Origin: Nanobdellota archaeon
GTDB taxonomy: Archaea > Nanobdellota > Nanobdellia > Woesearchaeales > UBA11576
Assembly: GCA_042576705.1 (NCBI GenBank)
Contig: JBHPEY010000005.1
Span: 1,786 to 65,785 of the forward strand
DNA length: 64,000 bases
Direction: 5' to 3'
The notes beneath the pieces were generated by a model. That model was not told the origin of the DNA. It did not search any database and saw only the letters and a list, made by a program, of their open reading frames with translations. Both the position numbers and the translations under genes were made by a program. Positions 42,038-60,273 of this stretch are shown in pieces (position 1 is the first letter of the stretch; the number at the start of each line of letters is the position of its first letter).

Positions 42038-42044
42038 ATCTCTG

Positions 42045-42288: not shown

Positions 42289-42311
42289 TATTTCCATAGG
42301 AAATAGGGGGG
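42289..42311 (+). promoter_or_regulatory. ORB-like origin recognition box with dyad and G-string
   Basis: TATTTCCATAGGAAATAGGGGGG has a perfect dyad TATTTCC/GGAAATA followed by G6, matching the general archaeal ORB architecture (TTCCA..GGAAA plus G-string). Confidence 0.55.
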
Positions 42312-42399
42312 TTAGGGTTATAATTTATTCATTCTAACCATTATAATCGTTAATATCACGATTTTTTATAATATGGGGCTTCTAAAGCATATATTATGA

Positions 42400-42415
42400 C
42401 CTCTATTTCCTGTGC
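42400..42415 (-). promoter_or_regulatory. mini-ORB-like half site
   Basis: The reverse complement GCACAGGAAATAGAGG resembles the right half (ATAGGAAATAGGGG) of the 42289 box. Confidence 0.35.
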
Positions 42416-42474
42416 GACCTTTTAAAATGATCATGTATATGACATCATAAGACCTTCCTTTCGTTTGGAGAAAA

Positions 42475-45344: not shown

Positions 45345-46077
45345 GAGACGTTTATACAACAGGGCGACAGGAGAAAGAATAGAATTTGCAGGATTTGATG
45401 GAGACCGGACACTTGTGACATATGATGGGAGCGAGTTCGGGTCCAGCTGGGACTTTGTCGGACATACATACTATCCGATAGATGAATGGCAGGGAATCGC
45501 GAGAAGATTCCACAAGAAGATCAGTGTTGCACAGACACAGGAAGAAAAAGACAAGCTGTTCATGGAATGGGTCGATACAGACATAGCAGCATTGAAGGGG
45601 AAGGATGTACACAGGGTGTATGAACAGACAGTGCCTTATACAAAAGGCGCAGAGGAGTATCTGAGAAACATACGCGCGAATAACGCAGCAGTCTATCTCG
45701 CAATAATAAGCGCGGGATTGGGGGTCGTGTTTGACAGGATAGCTGATGAACTTGATTTTGATAGCTGTCTGACAAACAGACCTGGTGTAGATGAGACCGG
45801 GATGTTCGACGGGACAATAGACATCCAGGTCACGCTCCATGACAAGAAAGCCAGCCTTGAATCCCTTCTTTCATGGATAGGTGGTGTTGAACTCAGGAAT
45901 GTGATGTTTGTAGGTGATGATTATAATGATGTTGAATGCCTCCAGGCAGTCAAGGAAGCAGGAGGACTGGCACTTGCAGTGAACCCCCTTCCCGAGGTCG
46001 AAGATATGGTGTCGCGGGCAGCAAACGCAGTCATACAGGACTTCACAGAACTTGAACAGTATACTGAAATAAGGTGA
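45337..46077 (+). CDS. HAD-superfamily phosphatase (SerB-like subfamily IB)
   Basis: Motif I FDGDRTL (DxDxT) and motif IV VGDDYNDVECL. SD-like AAGGAGGAG lies 8-16 nt upstream. 8-nt overlap with DP1 (ATGAGTGA). Confidence 0.75.
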   Translation: MSERRLYNRATGERIEFAGFDGDRTLVTYDGSEFGSSWDFVGHTYYPIDEWQGIARRFHKKISVAQTQEEKDKLFMEWVDTDIAALKGKDVHRVYEQTVPYTKGAEEYLRNIRANNAAVYLAIISAGLGVVFDRIADELDFDSCLTNRPGVDETGMFDGTIDIQVTLHDKKASLESLLSWIGGVELRNVMFVGDDYNDVECLQAVKEAGGLALAVNPLPEVEDMVSRAANAVIQDFTELEQYTEIR

Positions 46078-46087: not shown

Positions 46088-49000
46088 ATGGTAGTCGCAA
46101 GCCCGGAGATGCAGAAGTATTTTGAGGAACTCACCCGTAAATGTAGCGAAGCGTACGAGATAGCCAACAAGGCGCGCGCCAAAGGATATGATCCTGCTGA
46201 CAAGGTAGAGGTGCAGTTGGCATCTAACATGGCAGAGAGAGTTGTAGGGTTGATATCTGTGGTGGCGCCGCAGATAGTCGGAAGTGGAGTCGTCGAAAGG
46301 ATAATCGATCTCGAGAAAAAATATGGCGCGCTTGACTGGAGAGTTGCCCTGCAGATATCTATTGAGGTCGCTGAAGAGAGGTTCTGCAAGTTCAAGGACA
46401 AGAACGAGGCCATCGAGGTCGGGGTCAGGGTAGGGTTTGCGTATGGTACCGTCGGTGTGGTCAGCAGCCCGCTCGAAGGGCTGATAACAATAGACATCAA
46501 GAAACGCAGGGATGGGAAAGGAGAATACTTCTGCCTCAATTATGGGGGGCCTGTAAGAAATGCAGGAGGAACTGCAGCAGCATGGTCTGTGATAATCTCA
46601 GACTTTGTACGGAAGAAGATGGGATACGCAGAGTACGACCCCGATGAGAACGAGATCAAGCGCTGTCCGACAGAGCTTGAGGATTATCATGAGCGCGTCA
46701 CAAACCTGCAGTATTTTCCCTCAAAGAAAGAAAGCGATTTCATGCTGCGGAACCTCCCTGTTGAGATATCCGGGGACGCATCAGAGGACAAGGAGGTATC
46801 CAATTACAAGGATCTTCCACGGGTACCTACCAATAAGATAAGAAGCGGGTTCTGTCTCATACACTCCAGCTGCATACCACTCAAGGCAGAGAAACTCTGG
46901 AAGCAACTATCCAAATGGGGAAAGGATTTTGACATGGACCAATGGAATTTCCTCGAGGAGTTCATCAAGATAAAGAAGGAAGTGCATGCAAAAGGGAAAG
47001 GCGCGGAGAAATCAGGAGAGTCAAATCAAGAAAAACCAAAGGTGACTCCAGACTTCACGTTCATAAAGGACCTTGTCGCAGGACGGCCAGTCATAGGACA
47101 TCCCATGAGGATAGGTGGGTTTAGGCTGAGATATGGCCGTAGCAGGACGTCAGGATACAGCGCGCAGTCGATAAACCCCTGCACGATGCATGTCCTGAAT
47201 GACTTCATAGCGACAGGGACACAGCTGAAAGTGGAGAGGCCTGGAAAAGGTGCGGCATTCACGCCGTGTGATACTATTGAAGGGCCGATAGTCAAGATAA
47301 AGGACGGCAGCGTCATCAGGATCGAGACAGAGCAGAAGGCAAAAGAGATCAAAAAACAGATTGTGGAGGTGCTGTTTCTTGGTGATGCTCTCATCAATTA
47401 CGGGGATTTCCTCAACAGAGGACATTCACTCGTCCCACCAGGATACTGTGAAGAGTGGTGGGTGCAGGAACTGGAGAAAGAGATAGTAAACATCTTTGGA
47501 AATCTTGACAACTACAAGCTCGCAGAGATAGCAGACACCAAACCTGAAGAGCTGGAGAAGGTTCTAAAGAAACCGTTGAAGTACAAGCCAAGGGCAAAAA
47601 CCGCGATAAAGATAGCAAAGGCAACCAAGACATATCTACATCCATATCATTCATATTTCTGGAATTCAATAGACAAGAAAGAACTTCCTAAATTGTTTGC
47701 CTGGCTTCATAGGATGAAGGTAGAAAGTGATGATGATGGAGCAGTCAAAGCGGTGCTCGCGATAGATGCTGAGCAGAAAAGAAACATAGAGCTTGTCGGC
47801 ATACCCCACATTGTCGCGACAAATGAGTTTGTCGTCTTTGGGAGGGAGGATACAGAGGTCCTCAAGGAACTTCTCAAGATAGGGGTGGAGGATGTTGAGA
47901 GCGCGGTGCAGAAGATATCTGAGATAATATCTGACGATACTGTCAAGGATGTCGTCAGCGCATTGAACAAGTATTCTGATATCAAACAGCGCGATAAAGG
48001 GGGGATATTCATAGGATCCCGCATGGGCCGACCTGAAAAAGCAAAGATGCGGAAACTGACAGGAAGTCCGCACACCTTGTTTCCTGTCGGGGAAGAAGGT
48101 GGAAGGATGCGAAGCTTCCAATCTGCTCTGGAGAAAGGAAAGATACGTGCTGAATTTGCCGTGTTCAAATGCCCCTCATGTGAAGAGCAGGCCCCGTTCG
48201 GGGTCTGTCCAAGCTGTGATGTCAAGACAAAAAGAATCTACTCCTGCAAGATGTGTGGAGAGATTGAGGAAGCAGAATGTCCCAAGCACGGAACAGCAGC
48301 ACCTGCAATGATGCACGAGGTGAACATACATGATTATTTCTACAAGATACTCAAGAAGCTCGGCACACGAACATATCCTGACCTGATCAAGGGAGTGCGA
48401 GGGACAAGCAACAGGGAGCACATACCTGAACATTTCATAAAAGGGATACTGCGCGCGAAATACGATGTGCACGTGAACAAGGAAGGGACTGTAAGGTATG
48501 ATGCATCAGAACTTCCGATAACACACTTCAAACCAAAAGAGATATTCGTGAGCGTCGAGAAACTGAAATCATTAGGTTATACAAAGGACATCCGCGGCAG
48601 ACCACTTGAGAATGAAAATCAGATACTTGAGATCAAGCCACAGGACATTGTCGTGCCGTGCTGCCCCGACTCGCCGGATGAGCCGGCAGATGCCATACTC
48701 ACGAGGACGGCGCAGTTTATCGACGAGGAACTTGTCAAGCTATACGGACTCAAACCGTTCTACAACATCCAGACAAGAGAGGACATCGTAGGACACCTTG
48801 CGATAGGTCTTGCACCGCATACCTCCGCAGGGACAATATGCCGGATAGTTGGGTTCTCAAAGACGCAGGGATTCTTTGCGCATCCCCTGACGCACGCTGC
48901 CATGCGTCGTGATTGTGATGGTGATGAAGGGTGCTTCCTGTTGCTCATGGATACGTTCCTCAACTTTTCCAGAAAGTATCTTCCGGATTCAAGGGGAAGC

Positions 49001-49255
49001 ACAATGGATGCTGCGCTTGTGCTTACGACCATATTGACCCCTGCAGAAGTCGATGACATGGCGTTTGATGTTGACCGGGTGTGGACGTATCCTCTGGAGT
49101 TCTATGAGGCGTGCCTTGAATACAAGAAACCCTGGGATGTCAAGATAGAGACTATACAATCAGTCCTGGACAAGGAAGGGCAGTATGAAGGTATGGGATT
49201 CACTCATGACACTGAAGACATAAATGCAGGAGTTCAGATGCGTTGTGTGCAATGA
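46088..49255 (+). CDS. dp2: DNA polymerase II (PolD) large subunit DP2, main body (1055 aa)
   Basis: GSRMGRPEKAKMR, Zn-finger cysteines CPSCEEQAPFGVCPSCD and CKMCGE..ECPKHG, and AMRRDCDGDEGCFLLLMD (the catalytic CDGDE region of DP2). It ends FTHDTEDINAGVQMRCVQ*, so the last 6-7 aa look out of frame. Confidence 0.9.
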   Translation: MVVASPEMQKYFEELTRKCSEAYEIANKARAKGYDPADKVEVQLASNMAERVVGLISVVAPQIVGSGVVERIIDLEKKYGALDWRVALQISIEVAEERFCKFKDKNEAIEVGVRVGFAYGTVGVVSSPLEGLITIDIKKRRDGKGEYFCLNYGGPVRNAGGTAAAWSVIISDFVRKKMGYAEYDPDENEIKRCPTELEDYHERVTNLQYFPSKKESDFMLRNLPVEISGDASEDKEVSNYKDLPRVPTNKIRSGFCLIHSSCIPLKAEKLWKQLSKWGKDFDMDQWNFLEEFIKIKKEVHAKGKGAEKSGESNQEKPKVTPDFTFIKDLVAGRPVIGHPMRIGGFRLRYGRSRTSGYSAQSINPCTMHVLNDFIATGTQLKVERPGKGAAFTPCDTIEGPIVKIKDGSVIRIETEQKAKEIKKQIVEVLFLGDALINYGDFLNRGHSLVPPGYCEEWWVQELEKEIVNIFGNLDNYKLAEIADTKPEELEKVLKKPLKYKPRAKTAIKIAKATKTYLHPYHSYFWNSIDKKELPKLFAWLHRMKVESDDDGAVKAVLAIDAEQKRNIELVGIPHIVATNEFVVFGREDTEVLKELLKIGVEDVESAVQKISEIISDDTVKDVVSALNKYSDIKQRDKGGIFIGSRMGRPEKAKMRKLTGSPHTLFPVGEEGGRMRSFQSALEKGKIRAEFAVFKCPSCEEQAPFGVCPSCDVKTKRIYSCKMCGEIEEAECPKHGTAAPAMMHEVNIHDYFYKILKKLGTRTYPDLIKGVRGTSNREHIPEHFIKGILRAKYDVHVNKEGTVRYDASELPITHFKPKEIFVSVEKLKSLGYTKDIRGRPLENENQILEIKPQDIVVPCCPDSPDEPADAILTRTAQFIDEELVKLYGLKPFYNIQTREDIVGHLAIGLAPHTSAGTICRIVGFSKTQGFFAHPLTHAAMRRDCDGDEGCFLLLMDTFLNFSRKYLPDSRGSTMDAALVLTTILTPAEVDDMAFDVDRVWTYPLEFYEACLEYKKPWDVKIETIQSVLDKEGQYEGMGFTHDTEDINAGVQMRCVQ

Positions 49256-49490
49256 GAAATTCAGGCGGCCTCCACTGCTGGGCAAGTGCACCAAATGCGG
49301 AGGAAAGATACTTTTCACCATATCTGAAGGCAGCATAGTCAAGTATCTGGAGCCCAGCATAAGCCTGGCAGAGAAATATGACCTTCCGACCTATTTAAAG
49401 CAGAGCCTTGAATTGACTAAAAGGCGCGTAGAGGGTATATTCGGCAAGGAGAAGGAGAAACAGGTCGGGCTTGGCGCCTGGTTTGGCTAG
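49224..49490 (+). CDS. dp2: PolD DP2 C-terminal Zn-finger segment, encoded in the +1 frame relative to the main body
   Basis: MQEFRCVVCNEKFRRPPLLGKCTKCGGKILFTISEGSIVKYLE... is the conserved terminal DP2 motif (QEFRCxxCxxKxRRxPLxGKCxxCGG). It overlaps the main ORF by 32 nt, and an in-frame TAA sits directly before its ATG. Confidence 0.8.
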   Translation: MQEFRCVVCNEKFRRPPLLGKCTKCGGKILFTISEGSIVKYLEPSISLAEKYDLPTYLKQSLELTKRRVEGIFGKEKEKQVGLGAWFG

Positions 49491-49638
49491 ATTTTGCATC
49501 CTTCTCATATTACCTGCTTCTTTTCAGTTTATTGTAAAAAAATGTTCTAATAGTCTTATAATTGTTGGCATCTTCTCTATGTATGCGAGGCTTCTACTAA
49601 AAAGGGGAGACAGTTTTTAGCAAACCCGGTGGTTTCCG

Positions 49639-52600
49639 ATGGAGAACAGAAGTAACCAAGAACTAAAATTACTTGTAGATGTCTTTTCAGGCAGGACTAG
49701 TTCTAACAGGTTCGGATGGATGTCAGCATTATGCGCAAAGAAACAGCCTAATGCGATAACCAAGGAAGAGGCACTGGAGCTTTATCTTTCTAACAATGAG
49801 GTAGGGGATGTCGCGCAGACAACACAAGAAGCGCTTCTTACCTATGTGTCAGGCGAGACTGCCGCAATAGGCCAGGAATTAATCGATCTGAAGGCAATAC
49901 TCACAACCAACAAGAGATGGAAGATCAAACACAAGCAAGTGGAGAAGATATTGTCCCAGATACAGCCAGAGTCATTGAGCGCTCTTGAGAGAGCCTATCT
50001 GACAGACCTGAACAGGTATGTTTCAGAGAACAGGGCATTGAAGGCTGGAAGAAACATAAAGATAAGGAACGGCATTGAACAATCAATCTCACAGCTTATG
50101 CCGGAGCGACCTCATACTTCTGAAACAGACACCGATTATGATATCCTTTTTGCAGATGCACTCAGGCAGGCGTCGTCCAGCACAAGCAACAGGTTCGAGA
50201 TACTTACCGAAGCATATACAGCATTGAATGGAGAATCTGCACTTGGCAGAAAACTTCTCAGGTTTGGAAAACATCTTACATCATCTTCGGGTTGGGAAGA
50301 ACGGTTGCAGAATGCCGGGACTATCCTGCAGCAGAACATCTCTCTTGATCTTTCTGAAGATGATGAGAACTATCTCCGGAATGCGCTTACCTATATCGAG
50401 AATGCAGGGGTGAATCATGTCGCGCCTGCAGTGACAGGGCTTGCGACTGACCTGACTGAAAAGATACATGACCTGCTTCTGGGAGATCTTTTCACAGAAG
50501 AGGAGATGGTGGAAACTGATGATGAAGAGATAATCCTCCTGGATGATAAAGATATCATCTATGCGCCTGAATCTGCGGCGTTGCCTGAGGAGACTGTGCC
50601 CATAAAGATGGCACGTGTCGACGGGCTCAGAGACCCTGTTGCAGAGATGCTTGGTGCAGGGAGCAAACCATCTGACCCACATGTTATTGAGGATACTCCC
50701 GTGGCCGGAATCACATTCTTTGGAGAGCCTGTAGGATACACCCCTGGACAGGCCAATGTAGGGTCCTTGTTTGCCGATGATCCTGTTGATGGCGGGTCAC
50801 TTTTTCCTTTAAAGAATATTGCGTGCAGGGAGTATGGAAACAGGATTGTGAAAGAAGATCCTGTGGATTATACTGCGGATGATTCGCTCTCGGACTCTTC
50901 TGTCGAGCTGGTGTCTCCCGAAGATCCCAAACATCCTGATTTACACAAGTACCTGAACAGAAGGGTGGTAGCTGGTCTAGGTGCAGGTGCAGCGCTTCTT
51001 ACTGTGGTCGGTACACTGGTAGCTCTTGCGAGCACAAGCAAAAGCAATGTAGACGAATCCCTTACCATGGTGTCGACAAATCCTCCTGTGGTCTATGTTG
51101 ACGCCCCTAAAAAAGAGCCAGCTCCAAAACACGCGCTAAAGGCTGTCCAAGAGCAAAGTGACTGGGACTACTGCTTTGACAATCTTTTTGATGATTCTAC
51201 TGCGCTCAGAAAAGGCTCAAGTATACACACGTTGAGCAAAAAAGACCTGGCAGAGGTAACCCAAAGATGCTTCCTGGATCAGGCAAGAAGAATAGATCCT
51301 GACCTTCTCAAGAACGTCAAGATAAGCTCATCTAAGTATATGCAGTTCCCTGCGTCTGCAGACCATGTCCTGGTCCGCACAGTGATGATCCCTGTCGAGA
51401 CAGAGGGGGGGAGGGAAGAGGTCCCATTGTCCTATTTGGATCCTATGATCGACTCCAGCGTAATGAGTCCGTTCGGGGCGCGAAGAAGGATATCATCGCC
51501 AACACGGAACAGCGATGGAATCTACTCCTGCCCTGAAGGGCAATTCAGGATGGCAAGAAAACCTCGGGCTGTGCCTGAAGATGATCCTGTAGGGTCAAAG
51601 ATGACTTATGTTGACGCAACGCACATACAACCTTTAGGAAGCATAGATGGTCTGGTATCTGAGAAGGTTCCAGAATCAGTACCAATCACTACCTCAGATA
51701 CGCCTGATATATCGGATTCAGTGGCAGACAAACCCAATACAAAATCAAGTGATAAAGCAAAACCTACTGTGGCAAATACACCCTCAGATGATTATTCAGA
51801 CATTGCCTCTTCAACAGCGAAGGCAAGGCCAAGAAAAAGAGCAACCAAAGCAAGAGGCCCGAACTTCGCATGCTATAAGAAACACATGGGACTGGACCTC
51901 AAACCGACGGCCGCTGGCTGGAAGACACTCAGAAGATACAGGACACCAATGTATCCTGTCCTACCTGGACGTGTCAAAAAGCTGGTAAAAGGGGGAATTC
52001 GTGCAGGGGACTATGTTGTAGTAGAGCATGAGAATGGGATAACCAGTGAATACATGCACATGGACAGGTTCACACCAAGGCTTGACTGCTTTTTCCCAGA
52101 GCAAAGAAGACACGCAAAAAACAGGGAGGCGGCCAAGGACTGCAAGGCAGATGAAAGCATTGTTAAATCACGGACAGGCAGCCGGATAGAGTTCAAGGAT
52201 GGACAAGGACCTGTGGTCCTGCCACATGTGTTCGAGGAACTGACTTTCGAGACTGATCCTGAAAGCGATGAAGTCAGGAATCCACTGCGCGAATACCTGG
52301 GAGGTGAATTCTTTGTCGGTTTCATGGGCCATACAGGAAACGCAGACGTTGCGTATCCGCACCTCCATCTTTATGTCAAGCATGATGGCAAATACGTCGA
52401 TCCTGAGAGATTACTGCCGGTGAACAAGCACGGCATTGACGTCATATTTAATGAATCCCACGAGGCTTACCTTGCTGATGTATCGAAGAGAGTGGGAGTA
52501 CTTCCTTATGTTGTCCGCAATATGCGTGGAATAGAGACCGGACATAAAGGTGCAAACATGCGCGCTAAATCCCGTAAGGGTGCTGTAGGGTTCATGCAGG

Positions 52601-53274
52601 TCATGCACTGCGCAGTGAGCATGGCACGGGCCCAATGCCGGAAGGAACTGAATTATTTTGTCCACCAGAAAAAATCCCTGGAAGGCGTGGTGGATGAAAC
52701 TAGCAGGGATAAATCAGAGAAGATCCAGGACAACATAGATATGTTCTCATACTACTGCGACATGCTGTCCAGCGACATGAGTTGGCATTTTGTAAAGACA
52801 GACCCTCTTGTGAACATGTTCGCAGGCGTCATGGTATTCAAAAGGAATCTCGACAGGTTCGGAGGGGACTATCTCAAGGCCATCGCAGGTTACAACGCAG
52901 GACCCGGAGCTGTCGAGAAGGCGATGGCGAGAGCCAGCAGGATAGACCAGTCCCTTGACAAGAGGATACACAAATCAGAGATAAGCGGCAATGTGCAGGG
53001 GCTCATACAATTGCGCCAGCAGAAGAAAAAGAACAGCTGGATAAATTTCATATACAGCGGCACACGCCACTATGTGCATAGGGCAATGAAGAATATCGAA
53101 GAGGATGATGCGCTGTATGGTCCTGTAGAATCCCCTAATGAACAAAAACCTGCAAAGTATATCCCTCCCAAGCCTGCGGCTCCAAGCAGGACCGGACCGG
53201 CCCCCAGCAAGTCGGCAATGCGTGGAGGAAACCATCACCCTGCCAGACGGGATTATCACAGAAGAAGGACCTGA
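49639..53274 (+). CDS. 1211-aa bitopic protein with extracytoplasmic M23 (LytM) metallopeptidase and SLT lytic transglycosylase domains
   Basis: A single TM (VVAGLGAGAALLTVVGTLVALAS, about nt 50965-51035). M23 motifs HMGLD (HxxxD, 51883-) and PHLHLYV (HxH, 52359-), with GHTGNADV..HLH..DGKYVDP. SLT motifs GIETGH (catalytic Glu, ~52534), GAVGFMQVM and AGYNAGPGAV (~52888). The N-terminal ~450 aa are cytoplasmic and uncharacterised. Confidence 0.8.
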   Translation: MENRSNQELKLLVDVFSGRTSSNRFGWMSALCAKKQPNAITKEEALELYLSNNEVGDVAQTTQEALLTYVSGETAAIGQELIDLKAILTTNKRWKIKHKQVEKILSQIQPESLSALERAYLTDLNRYVSENRALKAGRNIKIRNGIEQSISQLMPERPHTSETDTDYDILFADALRQASSSTSNRFEILTEAYTALNGESALGRKLLRFGKHLTSSSGWEERLQNAGTILQQNISLDLSEDDENYLRNALTYIENAGVNHVAPAVTGLATDLTEKIHDLLLGDLFTEEEMVETDDEEIILLDDKDIIYAPESAALPEETVPIKMARVDGLRDPVAEMLGAGSKPSDPHVIEDTPVAGITFFGEPVGYTPGQANVGSLFADDPVDGGSLFPLKNIACREYGNRIVKEDPVDYTADDSLSDSSVELVSPEDPKHPDLHKYLNRRVVAGLGAGAALLTVVGTLVALASTSKSNVDESLTMVSTNPPVVYVDAPKKEPAPKHALKAVQEQSDWDYCFDNLFDDSTALRKGSSIHTLSKKDLAEVTQRCFLDQARRIDPDLLKNVKISSSKYMQFPASADHVLVRTVMIPVETEGGREEVPLSYLDPMIDSSVMSPFGARRRISSPTRNSDGIYSCPEGQFRMARKPRAVPEDDPVGSKMTYVDATHIQPLGSIDGLVSEKVPESVPITTSDTPDISDSVADKPNTKSSDKAKPTVANTPSDDYSDIASSTAKARPRKRATKARGPNFACYKKHMGLDLKPTAAGWKTLRRYRTPMYPVLPGRVKKLVKGGIRAGDYVVVEHENGITSEYMHMDRFTPRLDCFFPEQRRHAKNREAAKDCKADESIVKSRTGSRIEFKDGQGPVVLPHVFEELTFETDPESDEVRNPLREYLGGEFFVGFMGHTGNADVAYPHLHLYVKHDGKYVDPERLLPVNKHGIDVIFNESHEAYLADVSKRVGVLPYVVRNMRGIETGHKGANMRAKSRKGAVGFMQVMHCAVSMARAQCRKELNYFVHQKKSLEGVVDETSRDKSEKIQDNIDMFSYYCDMLSSDMSWHFVKTDPLVNMFAGVMVFKRNLDRFGGDYLKAIAGYNAGPGAVEKAMARASRIDQSLDKRIHKSEISGNVQGLIQLRQQKKKNSWINFIYSGTRHYVHRAMKNIEEDDALYGPVESPNEQKPAKYIPPKPAAPSRTGPAPSKSAMRGGNHHPARRDYHRRRT

Positions 53275-53568
53275 TCAATGCTCGATAACACATTGGGTGT
53301 GAGGTATCCCTGAGATTTCCATGATATTTTCTTCTTTTATCATGTCTTCTTTAAGGAGAAAACCAGTCGATTCTTTACCTACCGCGTTGATTACGTAACA
53401 GGTTTTTATTATCTCTTTGAGCTTATCCTCAGGCATCTCTTCCCCTTTGTAGAACTGGGAATCAAGATTCAGCTGTTTGTCATCTTCTTCAAAGACCTTG
53501 CCTAGAAGTTCAGAGTCGCAGATAGCAAGCATGCGGCCGTTCGGTGTGGGATGGATCTTTACAATCAT
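53275..53568 (-). CDS. DUF424-family protein
   Basis: From the internal ATG 53568: MIVKIHPTPNGRMLAICDSELLGKVFEEDDKQLNL..FYKGEE...NAVGKES...GIPH, the pattern I associate with archaeal DUF424. The longer track ORF overlaps aIF2-beta and was trimmed. Confidence 0.55.
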   Translation of the reverse strand: MIVKIHPTPNGRMLAICDSELLGKVFEEDDKQLNLDSQFYKGEEMPEDKLKEIIKTCYVINAVGKESTGFLLKEDMIKEENIMEISGIPHTQCVIEH

Positions 53569-53576: not shown

Positions 53577-53996
53577 TCAGTTTGTCTTTGCTTTGAGAGA
53601 CTTCACCTGATGCTTTGAACCGCAGGCCTGGCACTTCATGAATGAGAGTTCCCCTTCTGACAGGATCTTTGTGTCTGGCTTGCCGCAGTCAGGGCAGAGG
53701 ACATATTCAGAGGCGTATTTCCTAATCTTCTCGTTTATCCTTGAAGCAGGAACCTTTGCGCCCAGCATCAATGCGCTCCTGGTAAGGTTACCGGGCGTTG
53801 CCAACTCCTTTAGGATGTATTTCAGGACATGCTCAGGAGGTCTTCTCAATGCGTCGGTTATAATGAAGAAATTGCTGATCACTGTCTTGTTGCCCTGTAT
53901 GTGTCCCTTGACTTTAGGTATCTCAAAGCGCTCGCTTTCGAAGACAGATTCAGGCATCTCGCTTCTCGCTTTCTTGAGCATTTTTGAATAATCCAT
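53577..53996 (-). CDS. eif2b: Translation initiation factor aIF2 beta subunit
   Basis: RFEIPKVKGHIQGNKTVISNF, RPPEHVLKYILKELAT, and the C4 Zn ribbon YVLCPDCGKPDT...CQACG. Confidence 0.9.
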   Translation of the reverse strand: MDYSKMLKKARSEMPESVFESERFEIPKVKGHIQGNKTVISNFFIITDALRRPPEHVLKYILKELATPGNLTRSALMLGAKVPASRINEKIRKYASEYVLCPDCGKPDTKILSEGELSFMKCQACGSKHQVKSLKAKTN

Positions 53997-55747: not shown

Positions 55748-57049
55748 ATGGTACAGCAGAACCTTGTTGCGTATATCATGTCGCAGCTGCGGCAGGGCAA
55801 GAAGCTTGAGGATGTAAACAGATTCCTTCTTGAAGCAGGGTATGACAAGTCAGCGGTAGAGGGTTCTGTACAGTATGTCATCAACCTGCAGACAAACCCC
55901 GAGATTGCAGAGGAGCAGAGGATACAGCAGCTTTCAGATTACATAAACAAACAGATGCAGGCAGGGTATGGACAGCAGGCAATCGCGAATTTCCTGATAT
56001 CACGAGGTTATCCATATTATGAGGTCAATGTTGCATTGCAGCAGGCAACCCTACCAAAGAAAGAGGTCAAGGTCGAGCATAAGCTGGCTGTCTTTGCAGT
56101 GATTGTCATATTGGTAATGGCGTTGGCAGTGACTGCTATGTATTTCAAGCTCTATACCCTGTTCGGGCAAGCGTTTCCAGAACAGCTGCTGGATGTTGAG
56201 ACAGAAAAGCTCACTACCATAGTGCAACAGGGGGGAGAGCTGTCTTTTCAAGTGAAACTATTGAGCTTCGGATACAACAAACGCTTTGATGTTGAGCTGG
56301 AGTACAAGATAGTTGACAGGGACACTCAAGCAGTGGTGCTTGAGAAAGGGGAGACACTGGCGCTTTCAACTACACTGGAGAATATAGTCACTTTTGATAT
56401 TCCTGATACGATGAAGACCGGGAAGTATGTGCTGAGGGTTGATGCAACATACCAGGAATTTACAGCAACATCAGGATTCATATTTGATGTGTTGTCTGCG
56501 GATATTGCAGAAGAGACACTCAAGGAGATACGCGAGCAGATACCTGTCGAGGAGGAATTGACAGATATACCTGAGCTCGAAGAGAATGTCACAGAACCTG
56601 TCGAGCCTGTAGGGCCACAGGTCGTGCCTGAGCCTATACCCCCTGCACCAAGACCGGGGGTGCCGAAGTTCTTTGAAGGCATGACCAAGAAGCAGGCGTT
56701 CGAGATGGTAAAGGCAGCATCTGTCAGGGAGCCTAACAAGGCTGTGGCCATGTGCAACGAGTTCGAGCTGCCCGGTAATCTCCAGGGCTGTTTCATGACG
56801 CTAGCAAGCTTCAAGAAGGATGCGAATTTCTGCAGGGATATCGAGGAAGAAAGGGCCAGAGATTCCTGTTACATGCAGGCAATATTAGAGACAAAGCAAT
56901 TTGACCTGTGCGACAAGATAACAAACCAGCATGTCAAGCAATCCTGCGAGGTAGTGTCCGCCACAGAAGAAGCGCAGAAGGCAGCCGACGCAGGTAATAT
57001 GGAGGATGCGCAGTTCATATTACAGACAATCCCCTTAACTGGTGGCTGA
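55748..57049 (+). CDS. Single-pass membrane protein: two copies of a small cytoplasmic N-terminal motif, TM, beta-rich and Cys-repeat ectodomain
   Basis: LVAYIMSQLRQGKKLEDVNRFLLEAGYDKSAVEGSVQYV and LSDYINKQMQAGYGQQAIANFLISRGYPYYEVNVALQQ (duplicated motif). TM: LAVFAVIVILVMALAVTAMYF. The C-terminus has MCNEFELPGNLQGC, FCRDIEEERARDSC and LCDKITNQHVKQSC. Confidence 0.6.
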   Translation: MVQQNLVAYIMSQLRQGKKLEDVNRFLLEAGYDKSAVEGSVQYVINLQTNPEIAEEQRIQQLSDYINKQMQAGYGQQAIANFLISRGYPYYEVNVALQQATLPKKEVKVEHKLAVFAVIVILVMALAVTAMYFKLYTLFGQAFPEQLLDVETEKLTTIVQQGGELSFQVKLLSFGYNKRFDVELEYKIVDRDTQAVVLEKGETLALSTTLENIVTFDIPDTMKTGKYVLRVDATYQEFTATSGFIFDVLSADIAEETLKEIREQIPVEEELTDIPELEENVTEPVEPVGPQVVPEPIPPAPRPGVPKFFEGMTKKQAFEMVKAASVREPNKAVAMCNEFELPGNLQGCFMTLASFKKDANFCRDIEEERARDSCYMQAILETKQFDLCDKITNQHVKQSCEVVSATEEAQKAADAGNMEDAQFILQTIPLTGG

Positions 57050-59485
57050 ATCGATGAATCTCGGATTCAGTTGGGCCCTGTGGGATTCATAGAATACCTG
57101 CATCTCTTCTGTCTCGTTCATATCATTGAAACATCTTGGCATGGGCGTACTCAAAACATAGAACTCAACTGTGTCACCGCCCGCAAGATCCTCTTTTGAC
57201 ACGACCCAGGGGAAGCTTTCATTTATCTCTATTCCCCCAAGATTGACAGGTTTCATGGTTATGTTCTCCTCTGGAATGAATACATCCACGTCGCAACTCC
57301 CGCAGGTATGACATGACCAGATTCCTGCAGTCAAGACCCCTGTCAGAGCCGAGTATTCAGAGCATCTATCCTCATAGTCATAGGGGTACCATCTACACAT
57401 CTTTTCACAGTTGTCTGTCGTGCATTCCTCACATATGTGTGAACAGTTCTCTGGAAAAACCGTGCCATCTGTATCCAGATACTGCGCCTTGATAGTATAT
57501 ATCCCAGGCACCAGATCTACTGTCAGGAAATACGGGTCTGTCAAGGACGCGTTGCCATAGATGACCAATGTTTTTGTAAATGGCTGCACATAAGAGGGGT
57601 CGTCAATCTTCCTTATGTTCATTATGATCTGATCTGACCCGTTGAATTCTAAAAGCGTGCTGTTCCACACCAGCCATTTGTCTATTTCAGACCTCTCTAT
57701 CTCTTCATTCTCCAGGATTACTGTCCTGTTGAGGCGGAATTTCTTCAGTGATATGCTCTTTGTCACCAATGGTTCCAGCATCACGTCAAATTCAAGCTCT
57801 GTATCGACCTCTGTCGTCAGCTTTGCTATCACTTTTTCCCTGAATCCGTCTTTGGACAGCTTGAGGTATCCCCCGCCGACACAAATCGGCAGTTGAGTCA
57901 CCAGCTCACTTGTGTCTGAATCAAGGTCGTATGTGGTCTCTCCTATCGAGCAGGCCCTGTGAGACCCGCAGCCAAACCTGACCTGCACACCATCCAGGGG
58001 ATTTTCTGCTGTGCTGTTGAATGACCTTATGGTTACGTTACCGCTCACCCTCTGTTTCGGCCTGCAGAAAAGGCTTTTTGTTATGTTTCCGCTTACGTGG
58101 GGTATATTGGCTGCTTCCTCATTCATCATCGCCTCGGCTTTTGTATTTAGGAGCATCTTGGACCTGTCAAAAGGCCCCATGGTGCCATTGCCTGCCATCC
58201 ATTTCTTTATTGCCCTGTTGTCCCTGATGTTCGCCTCCAATGCAAAGTAGAATGAGTATGGTCTTCCAAAAAGCACATCCTCTTTCCTGAGCTCAACAAT
58301 GATAGGCACAGACACATCATAGAAGTATTCGTATATATTCTCCTCTGTGGGATTGCCGAACGAAAGACCCATCATGCTTATCTCTCTCACTTTCACTTCA
58401 GTAGGCCCTGTCGACTCACCGTCAGGGTTCATGTGCAGGTAGATGGGCTGGCCGAAGTAGAGGAAGGTCACGGTGTAATTATCATAGCCTGTCTCCAGGA
58501 CATCCTTATAGAACAGGGAATAATAGGCCTGTTTTGCCGGATCTTCTTCTATCGTGTATTGTTGTCTGCCGTTCTTGGTGTTCTTCAGCTGTATAAGCGG
58601 GGTGTAGACTCCAATAATGTCCATGATATTCTGCTTTACAATGGATCTGATCCAGACCTTCTTGGATGCTCCGAATTCCCGCGCAAAGAAAGGGGGGAGT
58701 CTGTTTGAGTCTGATGAGGAGTAGCTGCTCAGAAGATATATGATGATCTCTTCCAGGAAATTCTCTTCCACTTCAGCAGCGGTTATCGCTCTTGCGAGCT
58801 CGTAGAACTCTATAAACTTGAGAGGGATCTTTACGTAGAACCTGTCCAGTTCTGTTGTCCTGCTGTCCATAGTTATATTGACAGGGTAATTAGCGAATAT
58901 CGAGATGTCCTCTTTCGCAATCTTGACATCAACCTTGGGCTCTGCCTTCTCTTCAACTTCAAATCCCTGCTTTTCAAATCCCCTGAAATCATCAAGGCAT
59001 CTTTCCAACTCCCTGCTGATATACCTTTCCATCTGCAGCTCTATATTCTCAAGAGAGGGAGAGTTCTGGTCGCTCAACAGGCAGTTCCAGCAGTTGTTCT
59101 TCGTCGCCATATGCCACCAATAAGCCACATGCGTCGACTCATCCATCAGGAAGGTGACACCATCTGCCTCTGTAGGGTCAAACAGGTCTATGTTGAACTC
59201 CCTTCCGGAGATATCCTCGTCAAGCATGTCTATGTACCCGCCGTGCTGCCCTGCCTTGTATATCCCTTCTTCAGCAACCTGGGTTATACACGACCTTATG
59301 AACGTGTCTATAGGCTTGACTTCTGCAGGAGCCTCTTCAATCGCTTCACCTATCTCCTGCGATAGGACATCCTCCTTGTCAAAATAGATGAAGTACAATG
59401 TAACCAGTGCTGTTCCAAGTATGACTATACCTAATATTATGAAAATCGTGAGCTGTGCTTTTTTCCCAGTATGTATTGCATTCAT
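57035..59485 (-). CDS. 816-aa extracytoplasmic protein with N-terminal anchor / possible class III (prepilin-like) signal peptide
   Basis: The true start is probably ATG 59485 (MNAIHTGKKAQLTIFIILGIVILGTALV...), overlapping the upstream stop as ATGA (59482-59485). The 135 codons upstream in the track ORF overlap the 263-aa gene and look non-coding. The C-terminal region is Cys-rich (CSHICEECTTDNCEKMC, CHTCGSCD). Confidence 0.7.
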   Translation of the reverse strand: MNAIHTGKKAQLTIFIILGIVILGTALVTLYFIYFDKEDVLSQEIGEAIEEAPAEVKPIDTFIRSCITQVAEEGIYKAGQHGGYIDMLDEDISGREFNIDLFDPTEADGVTFLMDESTHVAYWWHMATKNNCWNCLLSDQNSPSLENIELQMERYISRELERCLDDFRGFEKQGFEVEEKAEPKVDVKIAKEDISIFANYPVNITMDSRTTELDRFYVKIPLKFIEFYELARAITAAEVEENFLEEIIIYLLSSYSSSDSNRLPPFFAREFGASKKVWIRSIVKQNIMDIIGVYTPLIQLKNTKNGRQQYTIEEDPAKQAYYSLFYKDVLETGYDNYTVTFLYFGQPIYLHMNPDGESTGPTEVKVREISMMGLSFGNPTEENIYEYFYDVSVPIIVELRKEDVLFGRPYSFYFALEANIRDNRAIKKWMAGNGTMGPFDRSKMLLNTKAEAMMNEEAANIPHVSGNITKSLFCRPKQRVSGNVTIRSFNSTAENPLDGVQVRFGCGSHRACSIGETTYDLDSDTSELVTQLPICVGGGYLKLSKDGFREKVIAKLTTEVDTELEFDVMLEPLVTKSISLKKFRLNRTVILENEEIERSEIDKWLVWNSTLLEFNGSDQIIMNIRKIDDPSYVQPFTKTLVIYGNASLTDPYFLTVDLVPGIYTIKAQYLDTDGTVFPENCSHICEECTTDNCEKMCRWYPYDYEDRCSEYSALTGVLTAGIWSCHTCGSCDVDVFIPEENITMKPVNLGGIEINESFPWVVSKEDLAGGDTVEFYVLSTPMPRCFNDMNETEEMQVFYESHRAQLNPRFIDSATS

Positions 59486-60273
59486 TTTGTTCTCAATGAT
59501 ATGTAAAAATATATCCTGGATGCGTGGATGCCTGCCAAAAAGACCAAGAGCGACGGGATGAACATGATGACTGCGCTGACAGCGATGCCGAGCAACACGA
59601 TGTTGCAGAGCAGTACCAGCCAGACAAGAACCAGCAGGTAGTTGAGGAGGCTTCTCAGCGAAAAGACTTCCCTGACTGAACGCATGTTGACCCATAATGT
59701 CTTGTCTGGGTCGAAAAAGACATACGCGACCATCAGGACAAAGTGGATTAGGGCAAGCTCTATCACGAGCAGATACGCGTTGATCGGCGTCTTGGTCAAT
59801 ACTACAGTCAGTATCATCACGACGATGCAGGCACACAACAGACAGATTGTCAATGCTGCAAACTTCCAGACATATTGCCAGCTGAAACACTTCCTGCTTA
59901 TCCTGCTCCAGATGAAACCCTTGAACACTGACGCAATCGATGCTGTGAGAAGGAAAATGAATATTGCGTAGGAAGATATGCTTATTTTCATGTCCTCCAA
60001 TTGCCTGCTGATGCCCTCAACCTCTGCCCGCACGTTTGCGGACAGCTCATTGCCCAGGACCTGCTGCTTGATTTCCAGCAGACGAGGGGCGATGTCGACA
60101 AAGCCCTCAAGCATCTTTCCCACAACAGCAATGCTGATGAGGATGATCATAGCCAGGATAAAGAGCAATGCAATATCTGTAAGGATGCAATAGAGGGAAT
60201 CTTTCTTCCAGAAGGCCGAAGATACCCTGCCCATACGCTCCTTTATCCTGCCCTTGCTTTTTTTTTTCTTCAT
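59482..60273 (-). CDS. Polytopic membrane protein (263 aa), unknown function
   Basis: Lys-rich N-terminus MKKKKSKGRIKER, about 6 TM helices, and a coiled segment between TM1 and TM2. ATGA overlaps at both ends (60270-60273 and 59482-59485). Confidence 0.65.
   Translation of the reverse strand: MKKKKSKGRIKERMGRVSSAFWKKDSLYCILTDIALLFILAMIILISIAVVGKMLEGFVDIAPRLLEIKQQVLGNELSANVRAEVEGISRQLEDMKISISSYAIFIFLLTASIASVFKGFIWSRISRKCFSWQYVWKFAALTICLLCACIVVMILTVVLTKTPINAYLLVIELALIHFVLMVAYVFFDPDKTLWVNMRSVREVFSLRSLLNYLLVLVWLVLLCNIVLLGIAVSAVIMFIPSLLVFLAGIHASRIYFYISLRTK

What the first reader, a model, noticed from the sequence alone, without database searches (positions are those of the whole stretch)
49639..53274. 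Peptidoglycan-hydrolase fusion (M23 endopeptidase + SLT lytic transglycosylase) in an archaeal genome
Seen in sequence: one 1211-aa ORF carries the M23 zinc-site motifs (HMGLD; HLH, in the context GHTGNADVAYPHLHLYVKHDGKYVDP). About 60 aa later come the family-1 lytic transglycosylase motifs (GIE-T, GFMQVM, GYNAGPGAV). All lie C-terminal to a single TM helix, so they are exposed outside the cell. A ~450-aa cytoplasmic domain of unknown function precedes the TM. Established knowledge: both domains cleave bacterial murein (peptide cross-links and glycan strands), which archaea lack. LytM+SLT combinations are typical of bacterial conjugation/T4SS and phage cell-wall-breaching proteins. Inference: this enzyme acts on the wall of a bacterial partner or prey, or was acquired from one. 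That would fit an episymbiotic lifestyle together with the adhesin-like arsenal in this window.
Basis: partly seen in the sequence, partly recalled or inferred. Interest (0 to 1): 0.78.

Follow-up and report, generated by a model that had tools for sequence, protein, structure and literature searches.

The report
Archaeal membrane-anchored peptidoglycan hydrolase
A small Woesearchaeota archaeon carries a real, fast-evolving membrane-anchored protein with two apparently intact bacterial cell-wall-cutting domains on its outer face, which fits the already published idea that such archaea attack or feed on bacteria.

Summary
Window 49639-53274 (+) is one 1211-aa ORF. It has a single TM helix (443-466), an M23 zinc-endopeptidase domain and a family-1 SLT lytic-transglycosylase domain. 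Both pass Pfam's curated cut-offs, and all catalytic motifs align in profile and fold searches.

The contig is archaeal (Woesearchaeota) and not chimeric. GC and codon usage match the neighbours. Orthologues sit at the same site (Cdc6-PolD DP1-DP2-[gene]-aIF2beta-SpoIIM) in eight other independently assembled genomes.

The family is tiny: about 10 clusters among 1.84 billion representative proteins. It is confined to one tight Woesearchaeal clade and is missing from four members of that clade. It shares only 25-34% identity where flanking genes share 74-92%. The SLT module is lost or interrupted in some orthologues.

The N-terminal 282 aa form a confidently predicted all-helical cytoplasmic domain with no Pfam or fold match.

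Most likely function: a surface-tethered hydrolase that cuts bacterial murein on contact. That step is inferred, not shown. Recent acquisition from bacteria, phages or plasmids is not supported.

Murein hydrolases in DPANN archaea have been reported repeatedly (2013-2025). This is therefore a new variant of a known kind, of moderate interest.

The parts
49639..53274 (+). Whole gene: 1211-aa type-II (N-in/C-out) membrane protein carrying M23 and SLT domains
   Evidence: ORF list and translation. Pfam hits above the curated cut-offs. NCBI names the identical protein 'transglycosylase SLT domain-containing protein [Nanoarchaeota archaeon]'.
49491..49638 (+). 148-bp AT-rich intergenic spacer between the DP2 C-terminus and the gene; probable own promoter (inference)
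   Evidence: Sequence read directly. It contains TTATAA-type and A-rich stretches. The archaeal promoter itself was not tested. A terminator-like hairpin lies at 49461-49485.
49639..50484 (+). Residues 1-282: cytoplasmic all-alpha-helical domain, family-specific, no known relatives
   Evidence: AF2 pLDDT is about 85-93 over residues 20-280, with 15 helices. No PDB or viral fold match (best E 0.066 and 0.02). No Pfam family. Conserved in P0002-P0007, P0011 and P0085; absent from P0008 and P0009.
50485..50958 (+). Residues 283-440: acidic, Pro-rich disordered linker
   Evidence: pLDDT 25-46. 18-23% identity between orthologues, and variable in length.
50965..51036 (+). Residues 443-466: the single transmembrane helix, preceded by KYLNRR
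   Evidence: Hydropathy scan. The K/R bias before the helix is seen across the family.
51151..51429 (+). Residues 505-597: extracellular juxtamembrane domain with conserved C512 and C544 (D-x-x-[YF]-C ... R-C-F)
   Evidence: Nearly invariant C512, E539 and C544. AF2 gives helices plus a beta-hairpin at pLDDT 55-72. No Pfam hit.
51430..51543 (+). Residues 598-635: N-terminal strand region of the M23 domain (DPM...SPFGARRR...C631)
   Evidence: In orthologues without the insertion, this segment runs straight into the HxxxD motif ('SP[FL]G...ISGF...R...C...C..H.G.D'). P602 is nearly invariant and C631 is invariant.
51544..51858 (+). Residues 636-740: low-complexity S/D/P/T/K-rich insertion inside the M23 domain
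   Evidence: Present only in P0001, P0002, P0003 and P0010/P0085; absent from P0004-P0009 and P0011. 23-25% identity.
51859..52428 (+). Residues 741-930: M23 catalytic core (C745, H749-x3-D753, Y772, H807, H908-L-H910), including a family-specific insertion at 812-890 (window 52072-52308)
   Evidence: Invariant C745, H749, D753, Y772, H807, P862 and H910 in 11 sequences. Aligned to Pgp3, ShyA and LytM motifs. Foldseek top hits are M23 structures. Pgp3 has about 12 aa where this protein has about 80.
52456..53088 (+). Residues 940-1150: family-1 SLT (GH23) domain with E966-T, G984-FMQ, Y1085-NAGPG and T1142-RHYV, plus helical insertions at about 990-1050 and 1095-1135
   Evidence: Pfam SLT 39.1 bits. 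The profile aligns the catalytic Glu and all four motifs to P. aeruginosa Slt and E. coli Slt70. Foldseek hits to MltD, Slt70 and LtgA. pLDDT 87-96.
53131..53271 (+). Residues 1165-1211: Pro/Arg/Lys-rich C-terminal tail
   Evidence: Composition. pLDDT below 50 at the end of the model. Poorly conserved.
46088..49490 (+). Upstream syntenic anchor: PolD large subunit DP2, here split by an out-of-frame deletion
   Evidence: Pfam. Every family member with recoverable context lies directly downstream of DP2.
53577..53996 (-). Downstream syntenic anchor: eIF-5/eIF-2B-type (aIF2beta) gene. The DUF424 gene at 53275-53568 (-) lies between it and the hydrolase gene.
   Evidence: 75-92% identical to the gene in the same position in relatives. 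Pfam labels on L081-L086. DUF424.

Best explanation
The gene encodes a surface-tethered, bifunctional cell-wall hydrolase of a Woesearchaeota (DPANN) archaeon. The polypeptide inserts with its N-terminus inside the cell. It then has a 282-aa helical cytoplasmic domain, a disordered linker and one TM helix. The remaining ~745 aa lie outside the cell. They comprise a Cys-containing juxtamembrane domain, an M23 zinc endopeptidase that would cut peptide cross-links, and a family-1 SLT/GH23 domain that would cut MurNAc-GlcNAc bonds.

This lineage is not known to make murein, so the most likely substrate is the peptidoglycan of a bacterium the archaeon touches. Because the enzyme stays anchored, the cut would be local and contact-dependent. 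It would open the wall of a host or prey cell, or release muropeptides next to the archaeal surface. The cytoplasmic domain probably positions or regulates the enzyme through protein-protein contacts.

Shown here: domain identities, conserved catalytic residues, single-TM architecture, archaeal and syntenic context, and rapid divergence. Inferred: topology (positive-inside rule plus conserved extracellular cysteines), enzymatic activity, the bacterial substrate, and the role of the cytoplasmic domain.
For: 1. Both catalytic domains pass Pfam's curated cut-offs.
2. H749, D753, H807 and H910 are invariant in 11 family sequences that are otherwise 20-31% identical. The catalytic Glu is kept in every member that has the SLT domain.
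3. Profile alignment places these residues on the catalytic residues of Pgp3, ShyA, LytM and Slt.
4. The AF2 model (pLDDT 80.5) matches M23 structures and then MltD and Slt70.
5. All members have one TM helix, with K/R enriched on its N-terminal side (42 before against 18 after). Four conserved cysteines lie C-terminal to the helix.
6. The genome is Woesearchaeota.
7. The gene is native. GC is 0.485 and its codon-usage distance is 0.059, against 0.053 for DP2.
8. Orthologues occupy the identical DP2/aIF2beta site in 8 other assemblies.
9. The gene is 25-34% identical between genomes whose Cdc6, DP2, aIF2beta and SpoIIM are 74-92% identical. It is missing from 4 of 13 members of the clade. This pattern of fast divergence and patchy presence is commonly seen in genes for interaction or antagonism (inference).
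10. Published genomics reaches the same inference for SLT and M23 proteins of DPANN (PMC8204110, PMC9723730, PMC8561730). An archaeal M23 hydrolase has been shown to kill bacteria (PMC12352652).
Against: - No enzymatic, localisation or co-occurrence data exist for this protein.
- The M23 Pfam score is only just above its cut-off (30.6 against 28.7).
- No recognised cell-wall-binding domain (LysM, SH3, PG_binding) is present.
- In the closest architectural analogue, PrgK, the LytM domain is inactive and the 'SLT' domain is a muramidase (PMC11323569). Domain labels therefore do not guarantee chemistry.
- Only 64 kb of the genome is visible, so genes for an own murein-like or pseudomurein wall cannot be excluded.
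- M23 and GH23 folds can act on non-murein substrates, such as Gly-rich proteins and chitin (background knowledge).
- An anchored enzyme must reach past the archaeon's own surface layer to touch another cell. This was not assessed.
Confidence: 0.5

Rival explanations
1. Scavenging rather than attack. The enzyme has the same chemistry on bacterial murein, but it acts on wall debris or dead cells. It would release amino sugars and peptides next to the archaeal membrane for uptake (the 'DPANN shunt' idea).
For: The intact catalytic sites and surface tethering are equally compatible with this. Vigneron et al. propose recycling of cell material by Woesearchaeota (PMC9723730). No pore-forming toxin or secretion machinery lies next to the gene.
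Against: A purely nutritional enzyme would not be expected to diverge to 25-34% identity while its flanks stay at 74-92%. Nor would it be expected to be lost in a third of close relatives. No sugar or peptide transporter is adjacent.
Confidence: 0.2
2. The substrate is not bacterial murein. The protein would remodel the archaeon's own envelope or that of an archaeal host, for example pseudomurein, glycoprotein glycans or Gly-rich surface proteins. It might act in division or in assembling surface structures.
For: The gene sits in a core replication/translation block near the probable origin, directly after PolD. The M23 and SLT domains carry large family-specific insertions that could change specificity. 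There is no murein-binding module.
Against: The gene is dispensable in four close relatives, which argues against a core envelope role. The SLT motifs are canonical family 1, including the ES/T, GxMQ and YNAG motifs that fit MurNAc chemistry. Known pseudomurein hydrolases belong to a different fold (background knowledge).
Confidence: 0.13
3. Released weapon. The ectodomain is cut off in one of its disordered, low-complexity stretches and diffuses as a bacteriolysin, like zoocin A or the haloarchaeal M23 hydrolase.
For: The long disordered stretches (467-504 and 636-740) are plausible cleavage sites. Secreted archaeal M23 hydrolases that kill bacteria exist (PMC12352652).
Against: The 636-740 stretch lies inside the M23 domain, so cutting there would split it. 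A conserved 282-aa cytoplasmic domain and a TM anchor are hard to explain for a diffusible toxin. No cell-wall-targeting domain is present.
Confidence: 0.1
4. Non-catalytic scaffold. One or both domains have lost activity and serve only to bind murein or regulate a partner, like EnvC, NlpD or the LytM domain of PrgK.
For: PrgK's LytM domain is degenerate (PMC11323569). Two family members (P0008, P0009) have NLH instead of HLH, and P0004/P0075 has a stop codon inside its SLT domain.
Against: In this protein every zinc ligand, both catalytic His residues and the SLT Glu are present. They are the most conserved positions of a fast-evolving family.
Confidence: 0.05
5. Artefact. A bacterial or phage gene was joined to an archaeal contig by misassembly or binning.
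For: A 166-nt out-of-frame deletion in DP2 lies about 400 nt upstream of the gene. It shows that the assembly or the strain is imperfect at that point.
Against: Sequence on both sides of the deletion, and on both sides of the gene, is Woesearchaeal and collinear with relatives. Orthologues lie at the same site in 8 independent assemblies from NCBI, JGI and ENA. There is no GC or codon-usage break. No phage, plasmid or viral-contig relatives were found.
Confidence: 0.01

Closest known systems
PrgK of Enterococcus faecalis plasmid pCF10 (class DELTA T4SS cell-wall hydrolase)
   Same: The order of parts is the same: intracellular N-terminal domain, one TM helix, then extracellular LytM (M23) followed by SLT (PMC11323569, Introduction). 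It is membrane-tethered so that lesions stay local.
   Different: PrgK has a third (CHAP) domain. Its LytM site is degenerate and its SLT domain is a muramidase. It is encoded in a T4SS operon and binds PrgL. The archaeal protein has intact M23 motifs and no CHAP domain. It has no T4SS neighbours and no detectable similarity to plasmid proteins beyond one generic M23 hit.
[quoted passage not shown] 2021, PMC8204110; GH23 genes in Vigneron et al. 2022, PMC9723730; AR20, Castelle 2015)
   Same: The same phylum-level host group, an SLT/GH23 domain, a predicted extracellular location, and the same proposed role on bacterial walls.
   Different: Those reports describe proteins up to 3000 aa that are defined by the SLT domain. 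Here the constant module is M23 and the SLT domain is optional. The family has about 10 clusters and is limited to one clade and one chromosomal site. Whether it belongs to fam00969 could not be tested.
Archaeal modular peptidoglycan hydrolases, e.g. the M23 protein 'Woldo' of Halogranum salarium (Strock et al. 2025, PMC12352652)
   Same: An archaeal M23 domain with bacterial murein as target. The paper lists M23 homologues in four Nanoarchaeia genomes.
   Different: Woldo is secreted and carries two PG_binding_1 domains. It groups with Bacillota M23 domains. The protein here is membrane-anchored, has no binding module, adds an SLT domain and a cytoplasmic domain, and has no close bacterial relatives.
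Bacterial M23 endopeptidases Pgp3 (C. jejuni), ShyA (V. cholerae), NMB0315, Csd1-3 and LytM
   Same: Best sequence and fold matches for residues 741-930, with the same HxxxD, YxH and HxH residues.
   Different: Identity is 14-22%. An insertion of about 80 aa lies between the YxH and HxH motifs, and one of about 105 aa lies before HxxxD.
Family-1 lytic transglycosylases Slt70 (E. coli), Slt (P. aeruginosa), LtgA and MltD
   Same: The catalytic Glu and the GxMQ, YNAG and TRxYV motifs all align. The fold is lysozyme-like and helical.
   Different: E-T replaces E-S. Two helical insertions of about 40-60 aa are present. There is no superhelical U/L domain and no LysM repeats.

Membership tests
Peptidase family M23 (Pfam PF01551, LytM fold) | Profile match at or above the curated cut-off | tested here: met
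   30.6 bits against a cut-off of 28.7. Orthologues score up to 42.3 bits.
Peptidase family M23 (Pfam PF01551, LytM fold) | Zinc ligands HxxxD plus the second His of HxH; catalytic His of YxH and the first His of HxH | tested here: met
   H749, D753, H807, H908 and H910 are present. H749, D753, H807 and H910 are invariant in the family. They align to the Pgp3, ShyA and LytM motifs.
Peptidase family M23 (Pfam PF01551, LytM fold) | LytM beta-sheet fold | tested here: met
   The 31 best Foldseek hits are all M23/LytM-fold proteins, including inactive LytM factors (EnvC, DipM, SpoIIQ). E 1e-4 to 6e-3, probability 1.00, TM on target 0.16-0.62.
Peptidase family M23 (Pfam PF01551, LytM fold) | Zinc-dependent cleavage of murein peptide bridges | not testable with these tools
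   Needs recombinant protein and sacculi.
SLT / GH23 family-1 lytic transglycosylase (Pfam PF01464) | Profile match at or above the curated cut-off | tested here: met
   39.1 bits against a cut-off of 21.3.
SLT / GH23 family-1 lytic transglycosylase (Pfam PF01464) | Catalytic Glu in the E-S motif, plus the GLMQ, AYNAG and C-terminal Y motifs | tested here: met
   E966-T, GFMQ 984-987, YNAG 1085-1088 and TRHYV 1142-1146 align to Slt of P. aeruginosa and Slt70.
SLT / GH23 family-1 lytic transglycosylase (Pfam PF01464) | Lysozyme-like fold | tested here: met
   Foldseek hits to MltD, Slt70 and LtgA at E 6e-3 to 4e-2, probability 1.00. pLDDT 87-96 over the domain.
SLT / GH23 family-1 lytic transglycosylase (Pfam PF01464) | Forms 1,6-anhydro-MurNAc products (transglycosylase rather than muramidase) | not testable with these tools
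   PrgK's 'SLT' domain proved to be a muramidase (PMC11323569), so the chemistry must be measured.
T4SS-associated cell-wall hydrolases, class DELTA (PrgK-like) | N-terminal cytoplasmic domain, TM helix, then LytM, SLT and CHAP | tested here: not met
   The order cytoplasmic domain, TM, M23, SLT is present. No CHAP domain is present.
T4SS-associated cell-wall hydrolases, class DELTA (PrgK-like) | Encoded within a conjugation/T4SS gene cluster | tested here: not met
   The neighbours are Cdc6, PolD DP1 and DP2, HAD, DUF424, aIF2beta and SpoIIM. No VirB4, VirD4 or relaxase hits in the window.
T4SS-associated cell-wall hydrolases, class DELTA (PrgK-like) | Sequence relatives on plasmids | tested here: not met
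   tblastn against 72,556 plasmids gave one generic M23 hit on a Thermomicrobium megaplasmid at 27% identity.
DPANN large extracellular SLT-domain proteins (fam00969 of PMC8204110) | Woesearchaeota or Pacearchaeota host, SLT domain, extracellular | tested here: met
DPANN large extracellular SLT-domain proteins (fam00969 of PMC8204110) | Membership of the same sequence cluster | not testable with these tools
   The fam00969 sequences are not at hand. The exhaustive HMMER search found only about 10 full-length-related clusters, so any relation is at the level of the SLT domain.
Modular archaeal peptidoglycan hydrolases (catalytic plus cell-wall-binding domain; PMC12352652) | A recognised cell-wall-binding domain (PG_binding_1, LysM, SH3 and the like) | tested here: not met
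   Only M23 and SLT are found at E <= 1. The juxtamembrane domain has no Pfam match.
Phage virion-associated or tail lysins carrying M23 or SLT | Phage gene context or phage relatives | tested here: not met
   The only phage hit is a 45-aa SLT motif in Delftia phage RG-2014. No IMG/VR relatives. No phage genes in the flanks.

The most novel reading that the evidence does not exclude
The protein is the wall-breaching element of a cross-domain attachment or feeding apparatus. The anchored M23 and SLT ectodomain would open the sacculus of a living bacterial host at the contact site. The novel cytoplasmic helical domain would couple this to intracellular partners. The extreme divergence, the module loss and the repeated gene loss at one fixed site beside PolD would then record an arms race with, or switching between, bacterial hosts. 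If so, this Woesearchaeal clade would be episymbionts or predators of bacteria rather than of archaea, and a specific, testable molecule would be in hand.
Probability: 0.2. Interest if true: 0.8.

Novelty: new variant of a known kind. Interest (0 to 1): 0.42.

Why it matters
The partners of Woesearchaeota and most other DPANN archaea are unknown, and none of this clade is cultured. A defined, apparently catalytically intact, surface-anchored murein hydrolase gives a concrete handle.

- Its ectodomain can be expressed and tested on sacculi of candidate hosts.
- Its specificity could point to the host's wall type.
- Its patchy presence at a fixed chromosomal site allows comparison of otherwise near-identical genomes with and without it.
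- It adds a membrane-tethered, PrgK-like architecture and a new cytoplasmic domain to the list of archaeal peptidoglycan hydrolases, which so far is dominated by secreted modular enzymes.

The general claim that DPANN archaea carry murein hydrolases, probably aimed at bacteria, is already in the literature. The gain is in detail and testability, not in concept.

Tried and rejected
1. Word-indexed homology searches returned only the query itself or nothing. The queries were the full protein, the ectodomain and the family alignment. The exhaustive HMMER search was needed to find the family.
2. The search for related loci failed with the 11-sequence alignment because it was too divergent. With the 3-sequence alignment it found nothing in genome, metagenome or viral collections. 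Context came instead from a PolD DP2 scan and from exact-protein look-ups.
3. An exact look-up of the window protein found no contig on record.
4. The cytoplasmic domain could not be assigned. It has no Pfam family, no PDB fold match and no viral fold match.
5. The bacterial-versus-archaeal origin of each domain could not be resolved. Outside the family, the best hits are 40-70-aa motif matches at E 1e-6 to 1e-3. Their cluster names are uninformative. The two that were looked up sit on phage-like contigs, which is too weak a basis for a donor.
6. A phage or plasmid origin is rejected.
7. A chimera is rejected.
8. Zinc-site geometry in the AF2 model could not be measured, because model coordinates are not exposed to the script tool.
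9. Rfam and tRNA scans of the window found nothing.

Full report
**The observation.** The window holds one uninterrupted ORF at 49639-53274 (+) of 1211 aa. HMGLD is at 749-753, YMHMD at 805-809 and HLH at 908-910. GIET is at 964-967, GFMQVM at 984-989 and GYNAGPGAV at 1084-1092. The only strongly hydrophobic segment is at 443-466. Pfam scores SLT at 39.1 bits (curated cut-off 21.3) and Peptidase_M23 at 30.6 bits (cut-off 28.7). NCBIfam gives only weak sub-threshold matches to murein hydrolases.

A profile built from the family's ectodomains aligns the relevant motifs onto solved enzymes. On the M23 side, 'HggvDL', 'ylHl' and 'hlHlev' align onto the HxxxD, YxH and HxH motifs of Pgp3, ShyA and LytM. 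On the SLT side, 'rarEakkm...gAvGfmQvm', 'YNaGrG' and 'trayvqgv' align onto the catalytic-Glu, GLMQ, AYNAG and Y motifs of P. aeruginosa Slt and E. coli Slt70. An AlphaFold2 model of residues 735-1165 (10-sequence alignment, mean pLDDT 80.5) matches M23 structures first. These include Pgp3, NMB0315, Csd1/2, EnpA and zoocin A, at E about 1e-4 and probability 1.0. It then matches MltD, Slt70 and LtgA. The protein passes it.

**Whose genome it is, and whether the contig is sound.** The flanking genes are archaeal hallmarks. Upstream are Cdc6/Orc1, PolD small and large subunits and a HAD hydrolase. Downstream are DUF424, an eIF-5/eIF-2B-type factor, SpoIIM and an OB-fold protein. RNase P p30 lies further away. 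NCBI holds the identical protein under 'Nanoarchaeota archaeon'. PolD DP2 is 73-78% identical to DP2 of Woesearchaeota MAGs.

GC is flat at 0.46-0.48 from 44 to 64 kb. The gene's GC (0.485), GC3 (0.490) and codon-usage distance (0.059) match DP2 (0.486, 0.547, 0.053) and other long genes. The block Cdc6-DP1-DP2 ... aIF2beta(-)-SpoIIM-OB(-) is collinear in dozens of Woesearchaeota loci. The gene is therefore an insertion into a conserved archaeal core block, not a joined fragment.

**The family.** An exhaustive HMMER pass over 1.84 billion representative proteins found 73 hits at E <= 1e-3. Apart from the query, only nine had E <= 1e-10 (P0002-P0010), and P0011 followed at 2.3e-10. The rest are 40-70-aa matches to the generic SLT or M23 core. 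The sources that name these proteins call them Woesearchaeota or Nanoarchaeota proteins.

The 11-sequence alignment has a mean column identity of 24%. C631, C745, H749, D753, Y772, H807, P862 and H910 are nevertheless invariant, and C512, E539 and C544 are nearly so. The shared architecture runs as follows:
- an N-terminal helical domain of about 280 aa;
- a disordered linker of variable length;
- one TM helix;
- a juxtamembrane domain with two conserved cysteines;
- the M23 domain;
- optionally, the SLT domain.

In the shorter members the segment 'SP[FL]G...ISGF..R' runs directly into 'C..H.G.D'. This shows that the M23 domain of the window protein really begins near residue 598. It is interrupted by a low-complexity insertion (636-740) and by a family-specific structured insertion (812-890). 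Pgp3 has about 12 residues where this protein has about 80. Across 11 distinct members, the 15 residues before the TM helix carry 42 K/R and the 15 after it carry 18. Together with the conserved cysteines on the C-terminal side, this supports an N-in/C-out topology by inference.

**One site, one clade, fast change.** Every family member whose context could be recovered lies between PolD DP2 and the aIF2beta gene:
- the window;
- L001 (JAFGJH01, P0006);
- L002 (CAYOQS01, P0005);
- L007 (CAZNGE01, P0011-like);
- L081 (GCA_019323395.1, P0003);
- L082 (JGI 3300037851, P0002);
- L083/L084 (JGI, P0075);
- L085 (ENA, P0084);
- L086 (JGI, P0085).

A family HMM found nothing in the other 77 DP2 loci. 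In a DP2 neighbour-joining tree all nine carriers fall in one tight clade. Within that clade L003-L006 lack the gene, and DP2 is followed directly by aIF2beta. Their scattered positions in this poorly resolved neighbour-joining tree suggest repeated loss.

The closest relative is L086. Against it, Cdc6 is 83% identical, DP2 78%, aIF2beta 92% and SpoIIM 86%, but the hydrolase orthologue is only about 26% identical. Among the three full-length orthologues the M23 core (41-52%) and SLT (32-46%) are the best-kept parts. The linkers are at 18-25%.

Module content varies. The L001, L002 and L007 orthologues end after M23. The L083 orthologue has an in-frame stop inside SLT in three samples, and its YNAG motif has changed to YAAG. 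P0008 and P0009 lack the helical N-domain and have NLH instead of HLH. The constant element is therefore the membrane-anchored M23 peptidase, and SLT is an accessory.

**The cytoplasmic part.** AlphaFold2 predicts residues 1-282 as 15 helices at pLDDT about 85-93. Residues 283-440 are predicted disordered. The domain has no match in Pfam, in the PDB (best E 0.066, generic helical repeats) or in BFVD. Its function is unknown. Because it is conserved in most members yet absent from P0008 and P0009, I infer a role in localisation, oligomerisation or regulation rather than in catalysis.

**Most likely mechanism.** The best-supported reading is a type-II membrane protein that displays a zinc endopeptidase and a glycan-strand-cleaving enzyme on the outside of the archaeal membrane. 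This lineage is not known to make murein. The gene is dispensable among close relatives. Its active-site residues are held constant while the rest diverges very fast. I therefore consider bacterial peptidoglycan, met on contact, the most likely substrate (confidence about 0.5 for contact-dependent wall breaching). The main alternative uses the same chemistry for scavenging wall debris (about 0.2).

Less likely are a non-murein or own-envelope substrate (0.13), a proteolytically released bacteriolysin (0.10), a non-catalytic scaffold (0.05) and an artefact (0.01). The best M23 matches are endopeptidases of Gram-negative bacteria (Pgp3, ShyA, NMB0315, Csd). This is a weak hint about wall type and nothing more.

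**Comparison with what is known.** The closest architecture is PrgK of pCF10. It has an intracellular N-domain, a TM helix, then LytM, SLT and CHAP, and it is tethered so that lesions stay local (PMC11323569). The archaeal protein works like that on paper, but it is not a member. It has no CHAP domain, no T4SS neighbours and no plasmid relatives. PrgK's LytM domain is also degenerate, whereas this one is intact.

Murein hydrolases in DPANN are an established observation:
- large extracellular SLT proteins in Pacearchaeota and Woesearchaeota, proposed to bind and degrade bacterial walls (PMC8204110, which cites Rinke 2013 and Castelle 2015);
- GH23 genes in 'vampiristic' Woesearchaeota (PMC9723730);
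- an M23B peptidase in a Micrarchaeota-related lineage (PMC8561730);
- the survey showing peptidoglycan hydrolases in about 5% of archaeal genomes, prominently in Nanoarchaeota, with bactericidal activity demonstrated for a haloarchaeal M23 enzyme (PMC12352652).

Four things are new here. The first is the defined family with a PrgK-like tethered layout. The second is the unassigned cytoplasmic domain. The third is the split M23 domain. The fourth is the finding that the gene is a hypervariable, frequently lost occupant of a single site beside PolD in one Woesearchaeal clade.

**Verdict.** The identity, topology and archaeal setting are shown, the bacterial target is inferred, and a recent foreign origin is not supported. 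I rate it a new variant of a known kind, with interest 0.42. The most novel reading still open is that this is the wall-breaching component of a cross-domain attachment or feeding apparatus shaped by an arms race with bacterial hosts (probability about 0.2, interest if true about 0.8).

Noticed in passing
window 49195-49275 (DP2 ORFs 46088-49255 and 49224-49490): The PolD DP2 gene is split by an out-of-frame deletion of about 166 nt. A 55-aa segment conserved in all relatives ('LCSSYKTLPSMQDKL...RKFS') is missing between 'INAGV' and 'QEFRCV'. The junction lies in ATGCAGGAGTT, which reads NAGV in one frame and MQEF in the other. Some relatives (L086 exactly, L082 nearly) carry the short direct repeat ATGCAGG at both sites. 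This is either a real slippage deletion in an essential gene or an assembly error about 400 nt upstream of the finding.
   Followed up: partly
window 41400-42464: A probable replication origin. It is a 1-kb AT-rich spacer upstream of cdc6, with AT palindromes at 42125-42260 and an inverted pair CATAGGAAATAGGGG / CCTCTATTTCCTGTG at 42295-42309 and 42400-42414. The cumulative GC skew reaches its minimum near 34-38 kb.
   Followed up: partly
window 57035-63991 (-): Four ORFs lie on the minus strand (951, 263, 177 and 1063 aa; the 951- and 263-aa ORFs overlap as listed). They have no Pfam or PDB match. Genes of matching size, order and strand occur in L083 and L085, and the 951-aa protein has homologues in L004, L083 and L085. 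That protein is itself fast-evolving, at 31-37% identity where the flanks are above 70%.
   Followed up: partly
L083 10380-10800 (orthologue P0075/P0004): This orthologue has an in-frame stop codon inside its SLT domain in three JGI samples, followed by a 73-aa ORF in which YNAG has become YAAG. An IS200-type Y1 transposase gene lies between DP2 and the hydrolase gene. The SLT module appears to be decaying.
   Followed up: partly
L001 6712-8940, L002 9687-12002, L007 11176-14259: The orthologues at the same site in these three GTDB genomes carry the N-domain, TM helix and M23 domain but no SLT domain. The L007 version has an enlarged, repetitive helical N-terminal region.
   Followed up: partly
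window 961-23813 (-) and 37983-41399 (+): A run of very large ORFs (2399, 577, 1307, 534, 460, 535 and 1153 aa) carries MopE-type metal-binding motifs and weak PKD, Big_13 and CarboxypepD_reg hits. A 1138-aa multi-TM protein with FixG_C/Ig-like repeats is conserved upstream of cdc6 in L081 and L082. A weak, sub-cut-off match to type IV prepilin peptidase lies at 23959-24972.
   Followed up: no
window 24000-33000: A block of lower GC (0.40-0.43, against 0.46-0.51 elsewhere) contains three radical-SAM genes (25593-27044, 28961-30322, 31454-32353) and several ORFs without matches. It may be an acquired island.
   Followed up: no
L087 and the P0016 contig (no DNA held): The weak non-family hits that were looked up, P0016 (SLT) and P0028 (M23), sit on phage-like contigs. 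One contig carries an integrase and a P22-type gene. The other is 120 kb long and carries ThyA, DHFR, many small ORFs and a second SLT gene. This is too distant to indicate a donor.
   Followed up: partly
window 45337-46077 and 53275-53568: Small genes come and go inside the conserved replication block. A HAD hydrolase lies between DP1 and DP2 in the window, L005 and L083 only. DUF424 lies after the hydrolase gene in the window, L081 and L086 only. The stop codon of the hydrolase gene abuts the stop codon of the convergent DUF424 gene with no spacer.
   Followed up: no
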